Assembly: GCA_951406725.2 (NCBI GenBank)
Contig: OX597828.1
Span: forward strand, 77,438,001-77,502,000
Source of the DNA: Octopus vulgaris
Taxonomy: Eukaryota
DNA: 64,000 bases
Direction of reading: 5' to 3'
The translations under genes were made by a program, and so were the position numbers. Shown in pieces: positions 55,785 through 56,230 of this stretch. The first letter of the stretch is position 1; each line of letters opens with the position of its first letter. The notes beneath the pieces are model-generated. The model had not been told where the DNA came from and ran no database searches. It saw only the letters and a program-made list of their open reading frames with translations.

Positions 55785-56230
55785 GTGGGCACGGGTCATC
55801 ATGAAACGTGTACAACAAAAAGTACTCCTGTCCTAACTTGATTCATGGGTTCCCCACCACAACCTTATTTAGGCTTAGTAGCCCTTCCTGTTTGTTTTCA
55901 CTGTCCTGTTTGTGTTACCTATTTTGATCCTCCGCAAAATCCCAAATTTTATTTAATTTGCTTTGCGGAAGCAACTGTTTAATCGAAAGCGTATATTGTT
56001 GTTAAATGTATCTTTTGTTGTTCGAAAAAATAGTTCATGTTCCTTAGAAGGCTACCCACTGACGAACCTTGCCTGGGCAAACATATTCTGTATGTTTTGC
56101 TAGAAAGAGGTAGAAACTGATCAGTCTGGGATACATTTATAATGGTAAATGTTTTTGATTTTCATTCCTTTGATGAATTTATCCCTCTTTGTGTTTCTAG
56201 CACTTGCTTCCCTATTTGGGAGCCTTCATA
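55785..56230 (+). mobile_element. Non-coding pLTR/retrozyme-like element between (TA)n tracts
   Basis: Contains the covarying hairpin at 55930-55971 and the HHR at 56053-56133; no ORF. Confidence 0.6.
56053..56133 (+). ncRNA. Type-I hammerhead ribozyme, near intact, predicted GUC cleavage after 56126
   Basis: CCCA CTGACGA ACCTT...GAGGT A GAAA CTGATCAG TC TGGG; inner hairpin GCAAACATA/TATGTTTTGC. Confidence 0.75.

What the first reader, a model, noticed from the sequence alone, without database searches (positions are those of the whole stretch)
56053..56133. Near-intact GUC hammerhead with extended stem II and a 10-nt palindromic stem III
All core bases are present (CTGACGA, GAAA, GTC). Stem I is CCCA/TGGG, stem II is ACCTT/GAGGT extended by an inner GCAAACATA/TATGTTTTGC hairpin, and stem III ACTGATCAGT is a perfect palindrome. 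There is one extra A before G12. It lies in a ~450 bp ORF-less element between (TA)n tracts and is the best candidate for an active ribozyme here.
Basis: partly seen in the sequence, partly recalled or inferred. Interest (0 to 1): 0.75.

Follow-up and report, generated by a model that had tools for sequence, protein, structure and literature searches.

The report
Penelope-type hammerhead relic with extra A
This is a real hammerhead-ribozyme motif inside a many-copy animal repeat, likely the 3' end of a Penelope-like retrotransposon, predicted to cut only when two copies pair and likely weakened by an unpaired A next to its active site, so it is a small variant of something already described.

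Summary
The motif is present as described and is not chance (0 of 300 shuffles). [quoted passage not shown] No PLE reading frame lies nearby, so clade membership is not shown. Folding predicts an off monomer (core paired to the palindrome) and a double-hammerhead dimer; no partner copy is in the window. Contigs of public runs show a dispersed repeat in two coded organisms. The extra A56112 and the palindrome show no listed variant, but most laid depth has C at 56127, which would mispair stem I. The '450 bp element' appears to be two repeats joined near 56044. A second hammerhead lies at 55475-55547. Activity is untested and is probably weak or nil. Ordinary biology with one open point: whether an A between 11.1 and G12 is tolerated.

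The parts
56055..56058 (+). helix I, 5' strand (A56058 = N2.1)
56059..56065 (+). core C3-A9 (G5 = 56061)
   Evidence: no variant row
56066..56111 (+). helix II: 5 proximal pairs (56066-70/56107-11), internal loops and a distal hairpin
   Evidence: distal hairpin varies at 56091-92 and 56095
56112..56112 (+). unpaired A between N11.1 and G12
   Evidence: no substitution or indel row
56113..56116 (+). core G12-A15.1
56116..56125 (+). 10-nt palindromic helix III; predicted to form between two molecules
56124..56126 (+). GUC triplet; predicted cut 3' of C56126
   Evidence: sequence, by analogy with hammerhead numbering
56127..56130 (+). helix I, 3' strand (56127 is C in most laid family depth)
56044..56228 (+). 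hammerhead-bearing repeat segment (F2), laid in coded organisms A and B; no depth at 56060-56134 in organism E
   Evidence: tables 2, 7, 8
55786..56043 (+). piece of a separate very-high-copy repeat (F1) joined upstream; most relatives leave the window sequence at 56008
56228..56264 (.). (TA)n tract, likely insertion target
55697..55785 (.). imperfect TA-rich tract upstream
55475..55547 (+). second hammerhead motif (intact core, G10.1-C11.1, 7-bp helix I, GUU site, helix III one change from a palindrome); not shown to be related
52880..53300 (-). diverged relative of F1 between (TA)n tracts, without the F2 hammerhead
   Evidence: nhmmer E 6.7e-8

Best explanation
The motif is a type I hammerhead sequence in a dispersed animal repeat, likely the 3' end of a truncated Penelope-like retroelement (Hydra-clade-like) left in a (TA)n tract, and it is predicted to cut only as a dimer and likely only weakly or not at all in this copy. 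Shown: core, stems, palindrome, extra A, (TA)n flank, many related copies. Predicted by folding: in one molecule the 3' half of the palindrome pairs with the core and keeps it off; two copies swap strands, form a 10-bp helix III and cross-paired helix I, and give two active sites. Inferred from published PLEs: in the parent element this would cut tandem precursor RNA 3' of GUC before reverse transcription. Inferred: this solo copy has no neighbouring partner, lacks G10.1-C11.1 and carries an unpaired A at G12, so it is most likely a passenger. Odds of measurable cleavage at 10 mM Mg: about 10% as monomer, about 40% as dimer, about 15% for fast cleavage.
For: Not chance. It matches the metazoan PLE-hammerhead consensus: U-rich 5' flank, CUGANGAH, palindromic helix III, short helix I, AU-rich 3' flank. 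10-nt palindromes are listed there for Aedes and Saccoglossus (PMC4209133 Fig. S3 text). Hydra-clade PLE hammerheads: 6 of 26 rows have a 4+2+4 helix III, 15 of 26 have a mismatch at 10.1/11.1, and 26 of 27 families are listed with (TA)n targets; Hydra-1_Obim is from Octopus (PMC8557442 Files S1-S2). The cut site is 103 nt before (TA)5+. All 4 plus-strand hammerhead-like hits lie within 103-157 nt of such a tract, against 12.4% of 13,088 background positions (threshold set after seeing the data). The homodimer minimum-energy fold is the double hammerhead (-53.6 vs -44.4 kcal/mol), and monomer core sequestration has p 0.86-0.88 at four pairs. Repeat family: 3051, 2580, 2131 and 98 contigs were laid in four runs. 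Summed depth over 56075-56119 is 48,000-76,000 in X1, where listed single contigs are 34-64 deep (not a copy number). Metazoan PLE hammerheads were inactive as monomers and weak as dimers in vitro.
Against: No RT or GIY-YIG remnant in six frames of 54430-57010, 52880-54240 or 57260-58400, so the PLE link rests on architecture alone. By eye the sequence is unlike Hydra-1_Obim and the Octopus Naiad 3' ends. The dimer energy gain is not above mononucleotide shuffles (71 of 200). Cross-paired helix I falls to p 0.41-0.56 in 56040-56145 and to 0 in 56044-56228. The extra A shows no listed variant in the family, which fits a tolerated feature as well as decay. Two of the four TA-proximal hits carry a core mismatch and could be chance (relaxed scan mean 0.67; 15 of 100 shuffles give two or more). 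The two decayed minus-strand motifs are far from TA tracts.
Confidence: 0.68

Rival explanations
1. It is an active natural core variant. The A between N11.1 and G12 is looped out and tolerated, the family was amplified in this form because it cleaves, and the palindrome acts as a monomer-off, dimer-on switch.
For: No substitution or indel reaching 10% is listed at 56045-56090 or 56096-56126 (one 1-nt deletion at 56095) in the runs that cover it; an RNA-guess contig equals 56044-56122 with 0 differences. One of 56 core cells in PMC4209133 Fig. S3 reads AGAAA. A second window motif at 30626 also has an unpaired base before GAAA and folds as a double hammerhead. Other core insertions are tolerated (U13a).
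Against: 56127 is C in 64% (X1), 81% (X2) and all (X12) of laid depth, while no change is listed at its partner 56058; that implies an A-C mispair at the cut site in most copies (phase unknown). Depth at 56045-74 is about 7- to 25-fold (X1) and 2- to 6-fold (X2) below 56075-56119, so most copies may differ there. A9-G12 stacks on the 10.1-11.1 pair. Perreault et al. rejected hits with such mispairs, mostly cryptic mutants in repeats. Naiad PLEs amplify without hammerheads, so copy number does not prove activity. The 30626 motif has a damaged G5.
Confidence: 0.17
2. It is a solo unit of a non-LTR retrozyme: a short non-coding tandem repeat that makes circular RNA by self-cleavage.
For: The segment is non-coding and short, has a type I hammerhead and is multi-copy; retrozymes occur in molluscs and are argued to derive from PLE ends.
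Against: No tandem copy in the window. No back-joint is listed within the stretch (table 5). Canonical retrozyme hammerheads have 6-bp and 4-bp helices I and II with loop contacts and a 1-2 bp helix III, unlike this one.
Confidence: 0.1
3. It is a host-adopted ribozyme conserved at this locus to process a transcript.
For: An exact 79-nt contig in a run guessed to be RNA.
Against: It is part of a high-copy repeat. No depth over the motif in organism E, which shares the upstream repeat. No gene is identified nearby.
Confidence: 0.03
4. It is a chance match in AT-rich, low-complexity DNA.
For: No Rfam hammerhead hit; no folding excess for the 106-nt region.
Against: 0 of 300 shuffles; architecture and position match published PLE hammerheads.
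Confidence: 0.02

Closest known systems
Hammerheads of Hydra-clade Penelope-like elements, incl. Hydra-1_Obim of Octopus bimaculoides (Craig et al. 2021, PMC8557442, Files S1, S2, S7)
   Same: Type I topology near the 3' end; helix III of about 4 bp plus 1-2 nt, near-palindromic; (TA)n target; position 10.1/11.1 often not G-C.
   Different: Different sequence; no linked ORF found here; much longer helix II (47 nt); the odd base is a one-sided A before G12, not a 1x1 mismatch.
Metazoan PLE minimal and palindromic hammerheads (Cervera and de la Pena 2014, PMC4209133)
   Same: CUGANGAH core, short helix I, long helix II, palindromic helix III, mostly solo dispersed copies, dimer-dependent design.
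   Different: Their consensus has the spare base between A9 and 10.1 and a G10.1-C11.1 pair. Here that pair is missing and the spare base is on the 3' side (1 of 56 listed cells reads AGAAA).
Non-LTR retrozymes (Cervera and de la Pena 2020, PMC7229834; Li et al. 2026, 10.64898/2026.07.22.740005)
   Same: Short non-coding repeat with a type I hammerhead.
   Different: No tandem array seen; not canonical helix sizes; circular RNA untested.
Rfam hammerhead families (clan CL00010)
   Same: Core letters.
   Different: No match at gathering score or at E<=10 on this motif.

Membership tests
Type I hammerhead ribozyme | C3-A9, G12-A15.1, U16.1, H17 intact and in C-G-S order | tested here: met
Type I hammerhead ribozyme | Helices I and II can form | tested here: met
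   p 0.48-0.99 and 0.90-0.95 in the 81-mer; helix I lost in longer contexts
Type I hammerhead ribozyme | Helix III forms | tested here: inconclusive
   p 0-0.01 as monomer; p 0.69-0.82 for A15.1-U16.1 across a dimer
Type I hammerhead ribozyme | Paired N11.1 directly before G12 (no insertion or mispair) | tested here: not met
   A56112 unpaired; criterion from PMC3088659
Type I hammerhead ribozyme | Match to a curated Rfam model | tested here: not met
Type I hammerhead ribozyme | Covariation in the stems | tested here: inconclusive
   only unphased variant tables; 56127 varies with no listed change at 56058
Type I hammerhead ribozyme | Self-cleavage 3' of H17 | not testable with these tools
   needs in vitro assay; contigs cannot show RNA ends
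PLE-type hammerhead | Palindromic helix III, short helix I, U/AU-rich flanks | tested here: met
PLE-type hammerhead | G10.1-C11.1 with a spare base after A9 | tested here: not met
   also absent in many Hydra-clade rows
Hydra-clade Penelope-like element | RT plus C-terminal GIY-YIG ORF with clade motifs upstream | tested here: not met
   no Pfam hit in six frames of the flanks examined; expected if 5'-truncated, but membership is not shown
Hydra-clade Penelope-like element | (TA)n insertion with the hammerhead near the 3' end | tested here: met
   103 nt to (TA)5+
Hydra-clade Penelope-like element | Dispersed multi-copy family | tested here: met
Non-LTR retrozyme | Head-to-tail tandem units of 150-450 bp, each with a hammerhead | tested here: not met
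   (this window and listed joints only)
Non-LTR retrozyme | Circular RNA | not testable with these tools
   needs northern blot or divergent RT-PCR

The most novel reading that the evidence does not exclude
A cephalopod retroelement family uses a hammerhead that keeps an unpaired A between N11.1 and the general base G12, fixed across many copies in two species, with a palindrome that locks the core off in monomers and switches it on in dimers. It would be a natural, active core variant at a position absent from the insertions seen in the papers read here.
Probability: 0.17. Interest if true: 0.5.

Novelty: new variant of a known kind. Interest (0 to 1): 0.27.

Why it matters
Hammerheads at PLE ends are common in animals and already listed for an octopus PLE, so the motif itself is unsurprising. 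It offers a clean small test of two open points: whether the core tolerates an insertion at G12, and whether PLE hammerheads need to be active at all for their elements to spread.

Tried and rejected
No assembly is held for this window, so no genome-wide alignment was possible. Pattern scans gave 1 viral, 4 metagenome and 4 prokaryote matches; all 9 lack hammerhead context and are chance. A second viral scan gave 0. A protein search with an open minus-strand frame across the motif, meant to recover other copies, gave no candidate among 33-105 aa proteins; longer proteins were not searched. No RNA holder is listed, and 4 of 24 listed runs were laid. The one RNA-guess run may hold DNA, so expression is not shown. 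The lack of cover in organism E shows only that nothing laid at 80% likeness. A heterodimer with the 55482 hammerhead is not favoured (-43.5 vs -42.6 kcal/mol, no double-hammerhead fold). Homology of the two motifs is not supported. I considered whether F1 is a non-circularly permuted hammerhead (core half and a GUC with a matching helix I strand, GAAA blocks on either side; PMC10085705). Helix III would be 2-3 weak pairs and the core half sits in a plain hairpin, so I left it as a lead. Octopus Naiad 3' ends did not resemble F1 by eye. Searches (gap too short for this helix II; bacterial promoter scan) were uninformative. HHR1 pair indices were off by one and were redone. Lunse et al. 2017 was not held and is known here only through a review. 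Three look-ups of earlier findings returned nothing.

Full report
Setting. The window is AT-rich and packed with microsatellites and holds non-LTR reverse transcriptase frames. It looks like an octopus-type animal genome; that label is my inference from recalled genome features and comes from no call. No assembly is held.

Observation. Two of 34 CTGANGA sites in the window pass a three-stem descriptor. No shuffle of 300 gives a hit as strict as this one, and 5 of 300 give one looser hit. Rfam reports nothing at gathering score in the window and no hammerhead on this motif at E<=10. The only hammerhead row is a weak one on the second motif (E 5.9).

Predicted folding. In the 81-nt monomer, helices I and II form, but helix III has probability 0. 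The hammerhead fold costs 3.7 kcal/mol over the minimum. The 3' half of the palindrome pairs with the core instead (p 0.86-0.88 at four pairs). Two copies fold, at minimum energy, into the double hammerhead with a 10-bp intermolecular helix III and cross-paired helix I (-53.6 vs -44.4 kcal/mol). Against this reading: the gain is matched by 71 of 200 shuffles, cross helix I drops to 0.41-0.56 in 56040-56145, and it vanishes in 56044-56228. No same-family partner lies in the window.

Family evidence. Twenty of 24 listed runs, from 12 studies and five coded organisms, hold part of 55790-56225; none holds half of its words and none is on record as RNA. I laid 4 runs at 80% likeness: 3051, 2580, 2131 and 98 contigs. 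Summed depth peaks at about 9e5 in X1 over 55940-55954, where listed single contigs are 34-64 deep. Most relatives leave the window sequence at 56008 into sequence resembling a second window copy at 53300-52880 (minus strand, E 6.7e-8). The hammerhead part has lower depth in organisms A and B and none over 56060-56134 in E. A 95-nt contig of the RNA-guess run equals 56044-56122 exactly and does not lay further upstream, and X2 shows a loose end before 56049. The 440 bp is therefore most simply two repeats joined near 56044 (inference).

Variants within the motif. No difference reaching 10% is listed at the core, the proximal helix II, A56112, GAAA, the palindrome or GUC. Variants are listed in the distal hairpin (2-nt loss at 56091 in 63% of X1 and 40% of X2 depth; A56092C) and just past the cut site. 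T56127 is C in 64%, 81% and 100% of laid depth in X1, X2 and X12, with no listed change at 56058. Depth over 56045-74 is far below that over 56075-56119. Either most copies carry an A-C mispair at the cut site, or most differ too much in the 5' half to be laid. The tables are unphased and 542 loose ends were not shown, so this is unresolved. It is also possible that A56112 is a true N11.1 whose partner was lost in this sub-lineage.

Comparison with print. PMC4209133 (parts 1-2 of 4 of the main text; supplement parts 1-2 of 3) gives the metazoan PLE consensus with a palindromic helix III, a spare base after A9 and G10.1-C11.1. It reports no monomer and low dimer activity. It lists 10-nt palindromes for Aedes and Saccoglossus. 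One of its 56 core cells reads AGAAA (row 29 if the text layer keeps column order; the figure was not seen). PMC8557442 (passages, section 11, supplement parts 2, 24, 52, 53) lists Hydra-clade hammerheads. By my count 6 of 26 rows have a 4+2+4 helix III and 15 of 26 have a mismatch at 10.1/11.1, and 26 of 27 families prefer (TA)n. Hydra-1_Obim from Octopus carries one near its 3' end, with a different sequence. PMC3088659 (passages) lists tolerated insertions (A6a weak, U13a) and rejects hits with mispairs next to the core as mostly cryptic mutants in repeats. An insertion before G12 was not in the 12 of 17 passages shown. PMC11300833 (passages) places the 10.1-11.1 pair beside A9-G12. PMC7229834 (parts 2-3 of 6) and bioRxiv 10.64898/2026.07.22.740005 (parts 1-2 of 5, supplements closed) define retrozymes as tandem repeats. 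PMC6765202 (passages), PMC10085705 (passages and sections 13-14) and PMC13282606 (passages; supplement listed but not read) give background; the last reports 30 recently active Penelope families in O. vulgaris and does not mention ribozymes. Seven searches found no paper on this family; the library lacks most subscription papers.

Position. The cut site is 103 nt before a (TA)5+ tract. The other three plus-strand hammerhead-like hits are 154-157 nt before one, against 12.4% of background positions within 160 nt (threshold post hoc; two of the hits have a core mismatch and may be chance). No RT or endonuclease remnant was found in the flanks examined.

Verdict. It works like a dimer-dependent PLE hammerhead and most likely is the 3' remnant of a Hydra-like PLE (0.68). 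I do not file it as a canonical hammerhead or as a Hydra-clade member, because the 11.1-G12 junction and the ORF tests were not met. Activity of this copy is untested and probably low. The kind is known and the variant is small, so interest is 0.27. The novel reading, an active core with an insertion at G12, has probability 0.17 and would merit 0.5.

Noticed in passing
window 55475-55547 (+): Second hammerhead motif with intact core, G10.1-C11.1, 7-bp helix I and a GUU site, 157 nt before a TA tract; helix II pairs have p 0.01 and the homodimer does not fold as a double hammerhead.
   Followed up: partly
window 30622-30669 (+) and 28152-28221 (+): Hammerhead-like motifs with one core mismatch each, both 154 nt before a TA tract. 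30626 has an 8-nt palindromic helix III, an unpaired base before GAAA and a double-hammerhead dimer fold. Either could be chance.
   Followed up: partly
window 27704-27862 and 45143-45289 (-): Two 80% identical copies of a repeat that carry a PLE-type minimal hammerhead outline with the GAAA block damaged in both.
   Followed up: partly
window 52880-53300 (-) and 55786-56043 (+): Very-high-copy repeat F1, shared by organisms A, B and E. The 53 kb copy has a hammerhead half-core with GAAA blocks about 30 nt upstream and, in relatives, downstream, recalling the 'half-core' noted for Naiad PLEs; class unidentified.
   Followed up: partly
window 55029-55275: A 250-bp near-palindrome (80% self-complementary), MITE-like, next to a (TG)n tract; a similar one lies at 24056-24427.
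   Followed up: no
window 35602-37837 (-) and 11361-12380 (+): Non-LTR retrotransposon reverse transcriptase frames (RVT_1, E 6.7e-21 and 6.1e-34), the first with zf-RVT; flanked by (ATT)n tracts.
   Followed up: no
window 28621-29049 (+): Open frame with C2H2 zinc-finger matches, possibly the end of a retroelement or a host exon.
   Followed up: no
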